Source of the DNA: an uncultured Acidobacteriota bacterium
GTDB lineage: Bacteria > Acidobacteriota > Thermoanaerobaculia > Multivoradales > UBA5704
Direction: 5' to 3'
NCBI GenBank assembly: GCA_963732005.1
Contig: CAVSXT010000005.1
Coordinates: forward strand, 2,638,631-2,702,630
DNA length: 64,000 nt
The notes under the pieces are model-generated. The model had not been told where the DNA came from and did no database searches. It worked only from the letters and a program-made list of their open reading frames with translations. This document shows positions 53,438 through 56,945 of the stretch, piece by piece; the stretch's first letter is position 1; every line of letters starts with the position of its first letter. Made by a program: the position numbers and the translations under genes.

Positions 53438-54560
53438 GTGGCACTGAGTACTATGCCGGCGATGGTGCCGGACCGCTCGGGAGGACTCGTCATCAGCTCG
53501 ACAACACCAGGGGCCCCGGGCTCGATCAAGGTGGTGGTTTGGGACCTCGACAACACGCTGTGGGAAGGGACTCTCCTCGAAGGCGACGCGGTGCGCCTGC
53601 GGCCGGCGGCCGCCGCGGCCCTGCGCACCCTGGACGCCCGCGGCATCCTGCTGTCGATCGCCAGCAAGAACGATCACGACCAGGCGATGGAGAAGCTGCG
53701 CGAGCTCGGCGTCGAGGACTACTTCATCTATCCCCAGATCGGCTGGAACGCCAAGTCCCTGGGGGTCGCGGCCATCGCCAAATCGATCAACGTCGGCCTC
53801 GACGCCATCGCCTTCATCGACGACGATCCTTTCGAGCGCGACGAGGTCGGTCATGCCCTGCCGCAGGTGAGGGTGCTGCCGGCGGCAGCGGTGGCCGAGC
53901 TGCTGGCGATGCCGGAGCTGATGCCGCGCTTCATCACCGACGAGTCGGCGCAGCGGCGGCGCATGTACCAGGCGGACATCGAGCGCAACCGTGCCGAGGA
54001 AGGTTTCCAGGGGCCGCAGGAGGACTTCCTGGCCGCGCTGGGCATGAGGTTCGCCATCCATCCGGCGCGCGAGTCGGACCTGCGGCGCGCCGAGGAGCTG
54101 ACGGTGCGGACCAACCAGCTGAACACCTCGGGCCAGACCTACTCCTACGAGGAGCTGGATGCCTTCCGCCGCTCCGCCGGCCACCTGCTGCTGATCGCCG
54201 GGCTGGAAGACCGCTATGGCGCCTATGGCAAGATCGGCCTGGTGTTGATCGCCAGGCAGGAGCGGCTGTGGACTCTGAAGCTGCTGCTGATGTCCTGCCG
54301 CGTGATCTCGCGGGGCGTCGGCTCGATCCTGATCCTCCACGTCCTGCGCCTGGCTCGAAGCCGCCGGCGTCCGGCTGCAGGCCGAGTTCAAGGCGACCGC
54401 GCGCAACCGCATGATGCTGGTCGCATATAAGTTCGCCGGTTTCCGCGAGGTCGCGCGGCATGGCGAGGTGCAGGTCTTCGAGCACCCGCTCGACCAGGTG
54501 CAGGGGTTCCCGCCCTATGTCCAGGTCGAGCTCGGCTGGGAGCCCCGGCCGGCGAGCTGA
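53438..54560 (+). CDS. FkbH-like glyceryl-ACP synthase (HAD phosphatase/acyltransferase) with an apparent frameshift near 54350
   Basis: HAD motif VVWDLDNTLWEG and IASKNDHD. After ~54350 the conserved C-terminus ...EAAGVRLQAEFKATARNRMMLVAYKFAGF... continues in the +1 frame to the stop at 54558-54560. Confidence 0.75.
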
Positions 54561-54580
54561 GAGCGCGGTATTGGAGGACG

Positions 54581-54620
54581 GGGGAGAACGGGGGAGAACG
54601 GGGGAGAACGGGGGAGGTAC
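54581..54620. repeat. 10-bp tandem repeat GGGGAGAACG x3 (plus degenerate flanks) overlapping the RBS of the next gene
   Basis: Seen directly in the FkbH-FkbK intergenic region. Confidence 0.6.
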
Positions 54621-54624
54621 GCGA

Positions 54625-55506
54625 GTGGAGAAGATCGGCGTCATCGGTGCCGGCGTCATGGGGGTGGGCGTGGCGCAGGACCTTGCCCAGCACGGCCGCC
54701 AGGTGGTGCTCGTCGATCTCGACGACGAGACGCTGGCCAGGGCGCGCCGGGAGATCCGCGCCAACCTGCGGCTGCAGGGCCTCCTGGGGCGCCAGGCGCC
54801 GGCCGCGGGGGGCGAGCAGCTGCCGCCCGCCGAGAGCAGCGCCGCCGTGCTGGCGCGAGTCGCCTGCACCACGGCGTACGAAAGCCTGGCCGAGGTGGAC
54901 TTCGTGATCGAGAACGTGGTCGAGAAGTGGCCGGTCAAGCAGCAGGTCTATCGCCGCCTCGACGACGTCTGTCCGCCGGCCTGCGTTTTCGCCGCCAACA
55001 CCTCGGCGATCTCCATCACCCGCATCGGCGCGGCCACCCGCCGCCCGGACCGGGTCGTCGGCATGCACTTCATGAACCCGGTGCCGCTCAAGCCGATGGT
55101 CGAGGTCATCCGCGGCTTCCACACCTCGGAGGAGACGCTGGCGGCCGCCCGGCAGCTGCTGGCGCTGCTGGGCAAGGAAGGCATCGTGGTCAACGACATG
55201 CCCGGTTTCGTCACCAACCGGGTGCTGATGCTGACGATCAACGAAGCGATCTTCCTGGTGCAGGACCAGGTGGCGCCGCACGACGACGTCGACCGCCTCT
55301 TCCGGGCCTGCTTCGGCCACAAGATGGGGCCGCTCGAGACCGGCGACCTGATCGGCCTCGACACCATCCTGTTTTCCTTGGAGGTCCTCTACGAGAGCTA
55401 CAACGACGACAAGTACCGCCCCTGCCCGCTGCTGCGCAAGATGGTGGACGCCGGTCTGCACGGACGCAAGACCGGCCGCGGCTTCTACACCTACGGCGCC
55501 GACTGA
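54625..55506 (+). CDS. 3-hydroxyacyl-CoA dehydrogenase family enzyme (FkbK-like glyceryl-ACP dehydrogenase)
   Basis: GTG start after GGGAGG. Motif KIGVIGAGVMGVGVAQDLAQHG. The 3HCDH fold continues throughout. Confidence 0.8.
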   Translation: MEKIGVIGAGVMGVGVAQDLAQHGRQVVLVDLDDETLARARREIRANLRLQGLLGRQAPAAGGEQLPPAESSAAVLARVACTTAYESLAEVDFVIENVVEKWPVKQQVYRRLDDVCPPACVFAANTSAISITRIGAATRRPDRVVGMHFMNPVPLKPMVEVIRGFHTSEETLAAARQLLALLGKEGIVVNDMPGFVTNRVLMLTINEAIFLVQDQVAPHDDVDRLFRACFGHKMGPLETGDLIGLDTILFSLEVLYESYNDDKYRPCPLLRKMVDAGLHGRKTGRGFYTYGAD

Positions 55507-55527
55507 GACCGCCGCCGCGAGCGCGCC

Positions 55528-55776
55528 ATGAACGACGTCCAGAGCCGGCTCAAGGCCTTCCTGTCACGTTTCTTCCGCCAGCACGACCTGCAGCCCGACG
55601 AGGACATCTTCGCGCTCGGGTTCGTCAACTCGCTGCTGGCCATGCAGCTGGTGAACTTCGTCGAAAAGGAGTTCGGCATCACCGTCGAGGACGAGGACCT
55701 CGACCTGGACAACTTCCGCACCCTGGCCGCCATCGACGCGCTGGTCGAGCGCAAGCGCGCCGCCGCCGGCGTCTGA
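55528..55776 (+). CDS. discrete acyl carrier protein (FkbJ-like)
   Basis: 82 aa. LGFVNSLLAMQLV carrier-Ser context. Positioned as in fkbHKJI/zmaNGDE cassettes. Confidence 0.8.
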   Translation: MNDVQSRLKAFLSRFFRQHDLQPDEDIFALGFVNSLLAMQLVNFVEKEFGITVEDEDLDLDNFRTLAAIDALVERKRAAAGV

Positions 55777-55781
55777 CCGCC

Positions 55782-56945
55782 ATGTCCGAGCCGGGCGAAG
55801 CCGGGTTGCGCCTCGAGCTGTCGCCGGCGCAGCGCGAAGCGCGGCGGCGCTGCCGCGCCTTCGTCGCCGAGCACGTGGCGCCGCACGCCGCGAGCTGGGA
55901 CCGCGCGGCGCAGCTGCCGGACGCGGCGATCGCCGAGCTGCGGCGGCACGGCTACCTCGGGGCCCATCTCGCCCGCGAGCTGGGCGGCGGCGGCGTGGAC
56001 CCGGTCACCTACGGCTTGCTCACCGAAGAGATCGGCCGCGGCTGCTCGTCGCTGCGTTCGCTGCTGACCGTGCACGACATGGTGAGCGAGGCCGTCCGGC
56101 GCTGGGGCGGCCCGCGCCTCAAGAGCGAGGTGCTGCCGCGCCTGGCGCGGGCCGAGCAGCTCGCGGCCCTGGCGCTTTCCGAGCCCAACGTCGGCAGCGA
56201 CGCCGCCGGCGTCGAGACCGAGGCGGAGCGCGACGGCGACGCCTGGGTGCTGAGCGGCAACAAGCGCTGGATCACCTTCGGCATGAGCGCCGATCTGTTC
56301 CTGGTCCTGGCCCGCCACGGCGGCCAGGCCGCTGCCTTCCTGGTGCCGGCGGCGGCGCCCGGCCTGACCCGGGAGCCGATCGGCGGGGTGGTCGGCACGC
56401 GCGCGGCGCGCCTTGCCGAGGTGACGCTCGACCGCTGCCGGGTGCCGGCGGATCACCTGCTCGGTCGGGTCGGCTTCGGCCTCTCGCACGTGGCCGCGAC
56501 CGCCCTCGACCTCGGCCGCTACAGCGTCGCCTGGGGAGCGGTGGGGATCGCCCAGGCATGCGTCGACGCCTGTCTCGACTACACCGCGTCGCGCCGCCAG
56601 TTCGGCAAGCCGCTGGCCGGCCACCAGCTGGTGCAGCGCAAGCTGACCGAGATGATCGTCAACACCCGCGCCGCCCGCCTGCTCTGCCTGCAGGCCGGCT
56701 ATCGGCGCACGATCGGCGCGCCCGACGCCGCCGGCGAGACCCTGATCGCCAAGTATTTCGCCTCGCGCGCCGCCACCCGGGCGGCCAACGACGCGGTGCA
56801 GCTGCACGGCGCCAACGGCCTGTCGCAGGACTATCCGGTCGAGCGTTACTGGCGCGACGCCAAGGTCACCGAGATCATCGAAGGCAGCACCCAGATCCAG
56901 CAGATCGCCATCGCCAGCTACCCGCCGGGCGAGATGCTCGGCTAG
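55782..56945 (+). CDS. acyl-CoA dehydrogenase family enzyme (FkbI-like)
   Basis: ACAD motifs: ...ALSEPNVGSDAAG..., ...GNKRWITFG..., ...YFASRAATRAANDAVQLHGANG... 387 aa. Confidence 0.85.
   Translation: MSEPGEAGLRLELSPAQREARRRCRAFVAEHVAPHAASWDRAAQLPDAAIAELRRHGYLGAHLARELGGGGVDPVTYGLLTEEIGRGCSSLRSLLTVHDMVSEAVRRWGGPRLKSEVLPRLARAEQLAALALSEPNVGSDAAGVETEAERDGDAWVLSGNKRWITFGMSADLFLVLARHGGQAAAFLVPAAAPGLTREPIGGVVGTRAARLAEVTLDRCRVPADHLLGRVGFGLSHVAATALDLGRYSVAWGAVGIAQACVDACLDYTASRRQFGKPLAGHQLVQRKLTEMIVNTRAARLLCLQAGYRRTIGAPDAAGETLIAKYFASRAATRAANDAVQLHGANGLSQDYPVERYWRDAKVTEIIEGSTQIQQIAIASYPPGEMLG

What the first reader, a model, noticed from the sequence alone, without database searches (positions are those of the whole stretch)
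53438..56945. Complete FkbH-FkbK-ACP-FkbI glycolytic-unit cassette next to an NRPS with no PKS module
Seen in sequence: fkbH-like (HAD VVWDLDNTLW), fkbK-like 3-hydroxyacyl-CoA DH, a discrete ACP and an fkbI-like acyl-CoA DH are colinear. Established knowledge: this quartet makes hydroxymalonyl-ACP, and methoxymalonyl-ACP when an O-methyltransferase is added. The product is normally consumed by a PKS AT domain, and FkbH homologues can also deliver glyceryl/glycerate starters. No PKS KS or AT domain occurs anywhere in this 64-kb window. Inference: the unit is most plausibly transferred to the NRPS N-terminal ACP-type carrier and condensed by C1 with Ser1. That would give an N-glyceryl/hydroxymalonyl-type capped hexapeptide. 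The divergent class I MT (48016-48825) could O-methylate it.
Basis: partly seen in the sequence, partly recalled or inferred. Interest (0 to 1): 0.8.

Follow-up and report, generated by a model that had tools for sequence, protein, structure and literature searches.

The report
Glycerate-unit gene cassette beside PKS-less NRPS
Four genes that normally make a glycerate-derived building block for polyketide synthases sit next to a six-module peptide synthetase with no polyketide synthase in sight, which hints at a peptide-only use of that block, but the link is unproven and the first gene carries a frameshift in this sequence.

Summary
fkbH, fkbK, a discrete ACP and fkbI are colinear at 53462-56945. 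The 64-kb window contains no KS or AT domain. One caveat was missed: fkbH has a 1-nt insertion near 54357 that puts its last ~66 codons out of frame, whereas orthologues 93% identical are intact.

The neighbouring 7687-aa NRPS is T0-(C-A-T)x6-ST-TE. Near-identical soil-metagenome contigs keep the same compact cluster.

Among fetched relatives with at least 8 kb on both sides, the window's FkbH clade (order H-K-ACP-I, apparently Thermoanaerobaculia) shows no PKS in 0 of 6 loci. Distant relatives show one in 45 of 57.

Carrier domains lacking their own adenylation domain recur beside such cassettes. This supports direct NRPS use of the unit.

Three results weaken the specific T0/C1 route. T0-C1 starts also occur without FkbH nearby. 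The cassette also occurs with no NRPS within 10 kb. No enzyme is present to move the unit from the discrete ACP to T0.

Verdict: a real cassette in an unusual context, with a plausible but unproven mechanism (about 0.45). It is a new variant of a known kind and of moderate interest.

The parts
53462..54560 (+). fkbH-like gene (HAD phosphatase / glyceryl-S-ACP transferase). A 1-nt insertion near 54357 interrupts it. As read, the ORF ends at 54430, and the conserved C-terminal 66 codons continue in another frame to 54560.
   Evidence: TIGR01686 at 253.7 bits. tblastn with P0001 gives two segments in different frames, 93% and 91% identical. DNA alignment with L001 and L003 shows the extra base.
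54625..55506 (+). fkbK-like NAD-dependent 3-hydroxyacyl-CoA dehydrogenase family gene (293 aa).
   Evidence: PF02737 and PF00725. Length and start match the gene called in L001. 69% identical to the copy in the PKS-linked Sorangium cassette.
55528..55776 (+). Discrete acyl carrier protein (82 aa, serine in LGFVNSL).
   Evidence: PF00550. An identical protein is on record in another assembly. 89% identical to the ACPs of L167 and L004.
55782..56945 (+). fkbI-like FAD-dependent acyl-CoA/ACP dehydrogenase family gene (387 aa).
   Evidence: PF02771, PF02770 and PF00441. Matches the FkbI structure 1R2J at 192.7 bits. An identical protein is on record.
24657..47720 (-). Single 7687-aa NRPS with architecture T0-(C-A-T)x6-ST-TE. 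It has no KS, AT or E domain.
   Evidence: Pfam. Domain coordinates from phmmer self-search. KS/AT search negative.
47316..47540 (-). T0, the N-terminal carrier domain. Its motif is ACP-like (LGLDSL), whereas T1-T6 have LGGHSL/LGGNSL. It has no cognate A domain.
   Evidence: Alignment of all carriers. T0-like domains were found only at NRPS N-termini in L001-L003, L006, L169 and L170.
45780..47243 (-). C1, a condensation domain of a distinct subfamily with active-site motif HHIVVDF (F in place of the usual G). It is 42-44% identical to C2-C6.
25782..26441 (-). Sulfotransferase domain between T6 and the TE, of the CurM activating-sulfotransferase type.
   Evidence: PF13469. Matches PDB 4GBM CurM ST at 206 bits and 4GOX at 179 bits.
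48016..48825 (+). Class I SAM methyltransferase (269 aa), divergent from the NRPS. It is conserved in L001-L003 only and is not of the FkbG type.
51122..52570 (-). Flavin amine oxidase family gene, conserved in L001-L003.
   Evidence: PF01593 at E 7e-44..
52530..53099 (-). 190-aa predicted membrane protein of unknown family, divergent from fkbH and conserved in L001-L003.
   Evidence: No Pfam or PDB match. The sequence is hydrophobic..

Best explanation
The cassette belongs to the same biosynthetic cluster as the NRPS and supplies a three-carbon, glycerate-derived alpha-hydroxy acyl unit that enters the peptide line directly, without any PKS.

Proposed steps:
1. FkbH takes 1,3-bisphosphoglycerate, removes the phosphate and puts a glyceryl group on a carrier's phosphopantetheine arm.
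2. FkbK (NAD) and FkbI (FAD) oxidise C3 to the aldehyde and then to the acid. This gives hydroxymalonyl-S-carrier.
3. The unit is presented to C1, either on the A-less N-terminal carrier T0 or in trans on the discrete ACP.
4. C1 joins it to the amino group of Ser on T1.
5. Five further modules extend the chain. The specificity codes read Ser-like, aliphatic, Ser-like, unknown, Ser.
6. The CurM-type sulfotransferase acts on a hydroxyl of the T6-bound chain, and the TE releases the product.

What is shown: the identities of the domains, their order, the absence of KS and AT, and the conserved synteny.

What is inferred: every transfer step, which carrier is used, and whether the cap is glyceryl or hydroxymalonyl.

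In this particular sequence the pathway would be blocked at step 1 if the fkbH frameshift is real rather than a sequencing error.
For: - Cassette identity and likely chemistry.
- No KS or AT in 64 kb.
- The compact cluster NRPS / MT / amine oxidase / membrane protein / cassette is conserved in L001-L003 with no unrelated gene in between.
- In L006 (77% FkbH identity) an NRPS starting with T0 (LGLDSL) and a C1-type C domain is again divergent from fkbH-fkbK, although the accessory genes differ.
- Among loci with at least 8 kb on both sides, none of the 6 in the window's FkbH clade (>=70% identity, order H-K-ACP-I) has a KS or AT. Four have NRPS domains only. The figures are 5 of 13 at 60-70% identity and 45 of 57 below 60%.
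- Carrier domains without a cognate A domain recur next to such cassettes. L123, L125 and L127 have terminal C-T-TE modules, and L043 and L053 have C-T-C.
- In L123 the cassette lies inside a tightly packed same-strand run: NRPS, MacB, MFS, FkbK, ACP, FkbI, FkbH, hydrolase, CmlA-like hydroxylase.
- In the window FkbH is the only carrier-loading enzyme encoded apart from the six A domains.
- C1 resembles carrier-to-carrier elongation C domains more than the one solved lipid starter C domain.
- FkbH-loaded glycerate caps on nonribosomal peptides are established for FkbH domains in cis (vioprolide, corramycin, cystomanamide, suomilide, dysinosin): PMC8949500, PMC10099666, PMC8609519, PMC6520454.
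Against: - The evidence is co-localisation only.
- T0-C1 didomains of the same subfamily occur without any FkbH within 6.6 kb (L169) or 10 kb (L170).
- The cassette occurs with no NRPS or PKS within 10 kb in L167 and L004, yet its ACP there is 89% identical to the window's. This argues that the ACP is not tuned to this particular NRPS.
- Two carriers are present with no acyltransferase to shuttle the unit between them.
- No paper in the searched library reports a C domain using hydroxymalonyl-ACP.
- fkbH is frameshifted here.
- Most fetched relatives show only the last one or two NRPS modules, so PKS modules further upstream in those loci cannot be excluded.
- DNA to the right of the window is known for only about 1.3 kb further.
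Confidence: 0.45

Rival explanations
1. The adjacency carries no direct biochemical link. The cassette makes hydroxymalonyl-ACP for a client encoded elsewhere in the genome, either a PKS with an ACP-specific AT or some unknown lineage-wide use. T0 of the NRPS is primed by something else, for example a fatty acyl group from a trans-acting ligase or Ser loaded by A1 onto both T0 and T1.
For: - L167 and L004 carry the same cassette (76-81% FkbH and 89% ACP identity) among housekeeping-type genes, with no NRPS or PKS within 10 kb.
- In L004, L168 and L007 the cassette directly follows Aldolase_II, ARD and HAD genes (methionine-salvage-like). This suggests a conserved chromosomal position independent of any NRPS.
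- T0-C1 starts exist without FkbH nearby.
- All characterised uses of this quartet feed PKS AT domains: PMC4207774, PMC3679948.
- Penicillin-amidase (PvdQ-like) genes in related NRPS loci fit lipid-primed peptides.
Against: - No KS or AT was found in 64 kb here, nor in any of 6 well-flanked loci of the clade.
- The compact cluster is conserved in L001-L003, and the T0-NRPS / fkbH pairing is repeated in L006.
- No fatty acyl-AMP ligase or stand-alone A domain is present in the window.
- A-less carriers recur next to cassettes.
Confidence: 0.3
2. The cap is glycerate only, in the style of dysinosin and suomilide. FkbH loads glyceryl directly on T0 and C1 attaches it to Ser1. The stand-alone methyltransferase and the in-line sulfotransferase then decorate the glycerate hydroxyls, as in the 2-O-methyl-3-O-sulfo-glyceric acid of dysinosins. 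FkbK, FkbI and the discrete ACP would then be a separate or vestigial branch.
For: - FkbH, MT and ST functions together in an NRPS loading module are described for DysB and SuoB: PMC6520454, PMC8609519.
- The window has all three functions.
- T0 is ACP-like and has no A domain.
Against: - FkbK, ACP and FkbI are intact, tightly linked to fkbH and highly conserved across the clade (75-89% identity), so they are under selection as a unit.
- The ST sits at the C-terminal end between T6 and the TE, the position it holds in CurM, and not in the loading module.
- The MT has no specific similarity to a known glycerate O-methyltransferase.
Confidence: 0.15
3. In this strain the cassette is a decaying remnant. 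The fkbH frameshift is genuine, so no glycerate unit is made and the NRPS makes an uncapped or differently primed peptide, or nothing at all.
For: - A 1-nt insertion that is not in a homopolymer run removes the conserved last 66 residues.
- Compared with L001 the window has two extra insertions in the cluster region (48829-51116, carrying a Peptidase_S74-domain gene, and 59626-60268). It also borders a mobile-element region.
Against: - The 23-kb NRPS ORF and the other three cassette genes are intact.
- Single-base indels are common assembly errors.
- Intact fkbH is found in at least three independent contigs of the same lineage.
Confidence: 0.3

Closest known systems
Hydroxymalonyl-/methoxymalonyl-ACP extender-unit cassettes (FkbGHIJK of FK520, ZmaN/D/G/E of zwittermicin, BafAI-AV of bafilomycin, Ozm genes of oxazolomycin)
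   Same: It has the same four protein families: an FkbH-type HAD enzyme, a 3-hydroxyacyl-CoA-DH-like enzyme, a discrete ACP and an ACAD-like enzyme. They are tightly linked and 46-70% identical to cassettes next to a KS/AT (PMC3679948, PMC4207774).
   Different: No client KS or AT lies within 64 kb. No FkbG-type O-methyltransferase is present. The gene order is H-K-ACP-I instead of K-ACP-I-H. The neighbour is a pure NRPS. fkbH is frameshifted in this copy.
FkbH-domain loading modules of nonribosomal peptides (vioprolide, corramycin, cystomanamide; DysB of dysinosin and SuoB of suomilide)
   Same: A glycerate-derived unit is proposed to enter a peptide assembly line on a carrier that has no A domain and to be joined by a C domain. 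DysB also combines FkbH, methyltransferase and sulfotransferase functions.
   Different: In those systems FkbH is a domain in cis, placed where an A domain would be, and no FkbK or FkbI oxidation step exists. Here FkbH stands alone and comes with the full oxidation set and its own ACP. The ST is at the releasing end of the NRPS.
CurM / olefin synthase ACP-ST-TE off-loading
   Same: The ST domain is clearly of the CurM type (206 bits to 4GBM). It sits between the last carrier and the TE, and the last module has a Ser code, so the carrier-bound residue carries a beta-hydroxyl.
   Different: The host is an NRPS, not a PKS. The TE resembles NRPS thioesterases, and no CurM TE match was returned. 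What gets sulfonated is unknown.

Membership tests
Hydroxymalonyl/methoxymalonyl-ACP biosynthesis cassette | FkbH-type bifunctional HAD phosphatase / glyceryl transferase (DxDxT motif, TIGR01686 domain) | tested here: met
   TIGR01686 at 253.7 bits against a cutoff of 146.65. DLDNT is present, and the conserved MSCRVISRG stretch lies before the frameshift.
Hydroxymalonyl/methoxymalonyl-ACP biosynthesis cassette | The fkbH reading frame is intact over the whole domain | tested here: not met
   A 1-nt insertion at about 54357 relative to L001 and L003 puts the last ~66 conserved residues in another frame. The model match stops at profile position 290 of 323. A sequencing error cannot be excluded.
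Hydroxymalonyl/methoxymalonyl-ACP biosynthesis cassette | Adjacent FkbK-like 3-hydroxyacyl-CoA dehydrogenase family enzyme | tested here: met
   PF02737 at E 6e-55 and PF00725 at E 1e-32. 53-70% identical to FkbK in PKS-linked cassettes.
Hydroxymalonyl/methoxymalonyl-ACP biosynthesis cassette | Dedicated discrete ACP | tested here: met
   PF00550, 82 aa, located between fkbK and fkbI.
Hydroxymalonyl/methoxymalonyl-ACP biosynthesis cassette | FkbI-like FAD acyl-ACP dehydrogenase | tested here: met
   Three ACAD domains are present. It matches FkbI 1R2J at 192.7 bits, although generic ACADs score higher. 48-56% identical to FkbI in PKS-linked cassettes.
Hydroxymalonyl/methoxymalonyl-ACP biosynthesis cassette | FkbG-type O-methyltransferase (needed for the methoxymalonyl form) | tested here: not met
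   The only MT (48016-48825) is of the Methyltransf_11/25 class. No FkbG-like hit was found (expectation of family PF01596 is from memory). Its best NCBIfam hits are all below cutoff.
Hydroxymalonyl/methoxymalonyl-ACP biosynthesis cassette | Client PKS module (a KS plus an AT that accepts the ACP-linked extender) in the cluster | tested here: not met
   No KS or AT was found in any frame of the 64-kb window, nor in L001-L003. The rest of the genome could not be searched.
Hydroxymalonyl/methoxymalonyl-ACP biosynthesis cassette | The product really is hydroxymalonyl-S-ACP | not testable with these tools
   Needs an enzyme assay with mass spectrometry of the carrier.
FkbH-primed NRPS loading (vioprolide / dysinosin type) | FkbH present as an in-cis domain next to a T domain in the NRPS | tested here: not met
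   FkbH is a separate gene 5.7 kb from the NRPS start, and the NRPS has no FkbH domain.
FkbH-primed NRPS loading (vioprolide / dysinosin type) | A carrier without a cognate A domain, followed by a C domain that joins the unit to the next residue | tested here: met
   The protein begins with T0 (47316-47540) and then C1 (45780-47243). That FkbH is what loads T0 was not tested.
CurM-type ST-TE off-loading | Activating sulfotransferase homologous to CurM ST, located between the last carrier and the TE | tested here: met
   4GBM at 206 bits (E 8e-60). Domain order T6-ST-TE.
CurM-type ST-TE off-loading | Specialised CurM-type thioesterase | tested here: inconclusive
   The best TE matches are NRPS and PKS/FAS thioesterases (7CRN, 4ZXH, EntF). 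No chain named CurM TE was among the matches at E <= 0.001. No fold comparison was made.

The most novel reading that the evidence does not exclude
Hydroxymalonyl-ACP, known only as a PKS extender unit, is used here without any PKS. A special initiation condensation domain (HHxxxDF motif, fused behind an ACP-like carrier) would take the glycerate-derived alpha-hydroxy(malonyl) thioester as donor and cap a Ser-rich peptide. An in-line CurM-type sulfotransferase would then sulfonate the chain before release. This would be a lineage-wide trait of uncultured Thermoanaerobaculia, whose H-K-ACP-I cassettes are never seen next to a KS or AT.
Probability: 0.25. Interest if true: 0.75.

Novelty: new variant of a known kind. 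Interest (0 to 1): 0.55.

Why it matters
In every characterised case, ACP-linked glycolytic units (hydroxymalonyl or methoxymalonyl) are selected by PKS acyltransferases. Glycerate caps on peptides are known only from FkbH domains built into the NRPS.

A stand-alone, fully oxidising cassette that serves a pure NRPS would add a new way of priming or extending peptide lines. It would give engineers a new alpha-hydroxy-acid or tartronyl handle. It would also point to unexplored chemistry in Acidobacteriota, a phylum with almost no characterised natural products.

The clade-level pattern (no PKS next to H-K-ACP-I cassettes, and A-less carriers next to cassettes) makes the question testable with a few proteins. 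If the cassette instead feeds a distant PKS, the finding is ordinary.

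Tried and rejected
- Exact-protein look-ups for the window's own fkbH and for a right-end gene found nothing. I therefore could not extend the window.
- The species-representative genome scan did not contain the source genome. The best hit was 77% identical, a Thermoanaerobaculia MAG.
- My first regex search for KS and AT was too crude. I replaced it with phmmer using Pfam-validated seeds.
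- The 190-aa protein next to fkbH was considered as a possible ACP-to-T0 acyltransferase. I rejected this because it has no family or PDB match and looks like a multi-pass membrane protein.
- The methyltransferase was considered as an FkbG or BioC equivalent. Only weak, sub-threshold similarity was found.
- I looked for an SbnB-like diaminopropionate gene, as present in L006. The window has none.
- I looked for a conserved extra neighbour gene that could be the client in loci without an NRPS or PKS. None was found beyond transporters, a penicillin amidase and methionine-salvage-like genes.
- Literature searches for a C domain using hydroxymalonyl-ACP, and for FkbH in Acidobacteria, found nothing relevant.
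- Structure prediction and fold search were not used, because no open question here depended on a fold.

Full report
**What is in the sequence**

The region is high in G+C, about 70-77%. Codon-position G+C and family searches give the following gene map.

| Coordinates | Strand | Gene |
|---|---|---|
| 24657-47720 | - | single 7687-aa NRPS |
| 48016-48825 | + | class I methyltransferase |
| 49691-51082 | - | Peptidase_S74-domain gene |
| 51122-52570 | - | flavin amine oxidase |
| 52530-53099 | - | 190-aa membrane protein |
| 53462-54560 | + | fkbH |
| 54625-55506 | + | fkbK |
| 55528-55776 | + | discrete ACP |
| 55782-56945 | + | fkbI |

Downstream lie a hypothetical gene (57003-58844, -), an ECF sigma factor, a SnoaL gene and two SPFH/Band 7 genes. 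Upstream of the NRPS, positions 1-24000 carry relaxase/TraI, primase-like, RadC and DDE transposase genes, so this stretch is a mobile-element region.

**Check of the observation**

FkbH matches the FkbH domain model TIGR01686 at 253.7 bits, against a cutoff of 146.65. The other three genes match the expected Pfam families with strong E-values. FkbI matches the solved FkbI structure 1R2J at 192.7 bits, although generic acyl-CoA dehydrogenases score higher.

Stronger evidence for orthology comes from the cassette as a whole. All four proteins are 46-70% identical to their counterparts in cassettes that sit beside a KS and AT. Against Sorangium sp. So ce134 (L009) the identities are 64/69/60/55%.

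I took KS and AT seed sequences from two fetched loci and confirmed them with Pfam. I then searched every ORF of 50 aa or more in all six frames of the window. There was no hit at E <= 1e-4. 'No PKS in the window' is therefore correct.

The closest homologues of FkbH are about 365 aa and cover only about 90% of the window's 330-aa ORF. tblastn with P0001 (93% identical) splits into two segments in different frames. DNA alignment with L001 and L003 shows one extra base in the window at about 54357, GCTCGAAGCC against GCGC-AAGCC.

As read, FkbH loses its conserved last ~66 residues. Whether this is a true mutation or an assembly error cannot be decided here. The other cassette genes and the 23-kb NRPS frame are intact.

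**The NRPS**

The domain order is T0-(C-A-T)x6-ST-TE.

Specificity-code residues, read by hand from an alignment of the six A domains using the FDxS, SGE/GGx and NxYGPTE anchors, are as follows. The matches to Ser codes are recalled from memory.

| Domain | Code | Reading |
|---|---|---|
| A1 | DVWHMSLVDK | Ser-type |
| A2 | DVWHLSLVEK | Ser-like |
| A3 | DALFLGATIK | aliphatic-like |
| A4 | DVWHMSLVEK | Ser-like |
| A5 | DVVNVGRVSK | unknown |
| A6 | DVWHVSLVDK | Ser-type |

T0 has an ACP-like LGLDSL motif, while T1-T6 have LGGHSL or LGGNSL.

C1 is only 42-44% identical to C2-C6 and has HHIVVDF in place of HHxxxDG. Against solved structures it scores 224-255 bits with elongation C domains (Txo2, Txo1, TycC). 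It scores only 51 bits with the CDA lipid starter C domain.

A database search with T0-C1 found dozens of N-terminal fragments, mostly from Thermoanaerobaculia and other Acidobacteria MAGs. Most of the closest ones carry HHxxxD[F/L], and many show LGLDSL upstream. Among all C domains in the fetched loci, this type occurs only directly behind such a carrier at the start of a protein. T0-C1 is thus a distinct and widespread initiation didomain.

**Relatives**

Three metagenome contigs (L001-L003) are 91-94% identical in DNA to the window. They carry the same cluster in compact form: NRPS (7652 aa), MT, amine oxidase, 190-aa protein, intact FkbH (365 aa), FkbK, ACP and FkbI. An anti-sigma/ECF sigma pair, the Band 7 genes and a multicopper oxidase follow. 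The window differs by two insertions, at 48829-51116 (the S74 gene) and at 59626-60268 (SnoaL).

L001 reaches only about 1.3 kb beyond the window's right end, so the DNA further right is unknown.

**Clade pattern**

I fetched 170 loci around FkbH relatives and T0-C1 relatives and mapped NRPS, PKS and cassette domains in them. For FkbH loci with at least 8 kb on both sides the counts are as follows.

| FkbH identity to P0001 | Loci | With KS/AT | NRPS domains only | Neither |
|---|---|---|---|---|
| >=70% (order H-K-ACP-I) | 6 | 0 | 4 | 2 |
| 60-70% | 13 | 5 | 3 | 5 |
| <60% | 57 | 45 | 9 | 3 |

L001 and L002 in the top row are near-duplicates of each other.

The usual order in the distant relatives is K-ACP-I-H, as in bafilomycin (PMC3679948). 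The common hybrid layout there is KS-AT-...-T, then the cassette, then C-A-T.

In L006 (77% FkbH identity) an NRPS that also begins with T0 (LGLDSL) and a C1-type C domain is divergent from fkbH-fkbK. An ornithine-cyclodeaminase/SbnB-like gene lies between them.

Carriers without their own A domain recur beside cassettes. L123, L125 and L127 end in C-T-TE, and L043 and L053 have C-T-C. In L123 the genes NRPS, MacB, MFS, FkbK, ACP, FkbI, FkbH, hydrolase and a CmlA-like beta-hydroxylase form one tightly packed same-strand run.

**Evidence pointing the other way**

- L167 and L004 carry the same cassette with no NRPS or PKS within 10 kb. FkbH is 81% and 76% identical, and the ACP is 89% identical in both.
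- In L004, L168 and L007 the cassette follows Aldolase_II, ARD and HAD genes, and the HAD stop overlaps the fkbH start.
- Two T0-C1 clusters (L169, L170) have no FkbH within 6.6 kb and 10 kb respectively.
- The MT, the amine oxidase and the membrane protein are seen only in L001-L003.
- No acyltransferase is present that could move a unit from the discrete ACP to T0.

**Interpretation**

The most likely reading, at about 0.45, is that the cassette is part of the NRPS cluster and delivers a glycerate-derived alpha-hydroxy acyl unit to the initiation module. The chemistry of the first three steps follows established knowledge of FkbH, FkbK and FkbI and their homologues. The ZmaE oxidation step is described in PMC4207774, and the remaining steps are recalled from memory.

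Which carrier C1 reads, and whether the cap is glyceryl or hydroxymalonyl, is inference. The main rival, at about 0.3, is that the cassette serves a client elsewhere and that T0 is primed differently.

A glycerate-only variant in the style of dysinosin is attractive because FkbH, MT and ST functions also co-occur in DysB (PMC6520454). It leaves the conserved FkbK, ACP and FkbI unexplained.

**Comparison with known systems**

By sequence the cassette is a member of the hydroxymalonyl-ACP family. It fails two contextual features of that family: a client PKS and the FkbG methyltransferase.

It works like the FkbH-primed NRPS loading modules of vioprolide, corramycin, cystomanamide, suomilide and dysinosin. 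It is not a member of that group, because its FkbH stands alone and comes with the oxidation set.

No paper in the searched library describes a C domain using hydroxymalonyl-ACP, or FkbH in Acidobacteria.

**Side finding**

The ST domain between T6 and the TE is of the CurM type (4GBM at 206 bits) and follows a Ser module. Related ST domains joined to NRPS T, C or TE domains are common in metagenomes, again largely from Thermoanaerobaculia. In the literature I found ST-TE pairs only in PKS settings, plus the trans-acting sulfotransferase of sulfazecin. This may be at least as interesting as the cassette.

**Verdict**

I rate this a new variant of a known kind, with interest 0.55.

Noticed in passing
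window 25782-26441 (-), inside the NRPS between T6 (26631-26846) and the TE (24810-25508): A CurM-type activating sulfotransferase domain (PDB 4GBM at 206 bits) sits in a pure NRPS directly after a Ser-coded module. The TE is of the NRPS type. Homologous ST domains fused to NRPS T, C or TE domains are frequent in metagenomes, many from Thermoanaerobaculia. Literature hits place ST-TE pairs only in PKSs.
   Followed up: partly
window about 54357: A single extra base relative to L001 and L003 frameshifts fkbH. The C-terminal 66 codons continue in another frame to 54560.
   Followed up: yes
window 45780-47540 (-); also L006, L169, L170 and proteins P0121-P0160: The initiation didomain, an ACP-like T0 (LGLDSL) plus a C domain with HHxxxD[F/L] instead of HHxxxDG, forms a distinct and widespread subfamily in Acidobacteria and some other phyla. 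What loads the T0 carrier is unknown.
   Followed up: partly
window 48829-51116 and 59626-60268: These are two insertions relative to the otherwise colinear relative L001. The first carries a 463-aa protein with a Peptidase_S74 (endosialidase chaperone) domain. The second carries a SnoaL-like gene, and a second SnoaL-like gene lies at 13202-13765.
   Followed up: partly
window 1-24000: This is a mobile-element region next to the NRPS end. It holds relaxase/TraI-helicase (2214-5036), a primase-like AAA_25 protein (5966-8128), RadC (11311-11994) and a DDE transposase (20771-22414). G+C drops to 63-67% between 14 and 24 kb.
   Followed up: no
window 54573-54612; NRPS N-terminus about 47540-47720; inside A1 and C1: Short tandem repeats occur at several places. 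GGGGGAGAAC is repeated about three times between fkbH and fkbK. Within the NRPS there are (Pro-Ala-Asn)n at the N-terminus, (Gly-Asp)n in A1 and (Gly-Ala-Ile)n inserted in C1.
   Followed up: no
L004 7779-10004, L168 7649-10004, L007 4181-5648: In three relatives of the same FkbH clade, Aldolase_II, ARD and (in L004 and L168) HAD genes (methionine-salvage-like) lie directly upstream of fkbH. In L004 and L168 the HAD stop overlaps the fkbH start.
   Followed up: partly
L166 3543-20019: In this relative (FkbH 82-84% identical by different measures) only FkbH and FkbK are present, with no ACP or FkbI. They lie between two NRPSs, together with an aminotransferase and a TauD gene. This suggests a different fate for the glyceryl unit, for example an amino-hydroxy acid.
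   Followed up: no
L123 1283-14003; L125; L127: These NRPSs end in an A-less C-T-TE module a few kb upstream of the cassette. In L123 one same-strand run holds NRPS, MacB, MFS, FkbK, ACP, FkbI, FkbH, a PDZ/alpha-beta hydrolase and a CmlA-like diiron beta-hydroxylase.
   Followed up: partly
window NRPS A2 (about 40485-42233), A4 (33708-35354), A5 (30303-31847): A2 and A4 have Ser-like codes with Glu instead of Asp at the ninth position (DVWH[L/M]SLVEK). A5 has an unusual code with Arg (DVVNVGRVSK). The substrates are not predictable from memory. In L006 an SbnB-like gene next to the related NRPS hints at diaminopropionate in that relative, but no such gene is in the window.
   Followed up: partly
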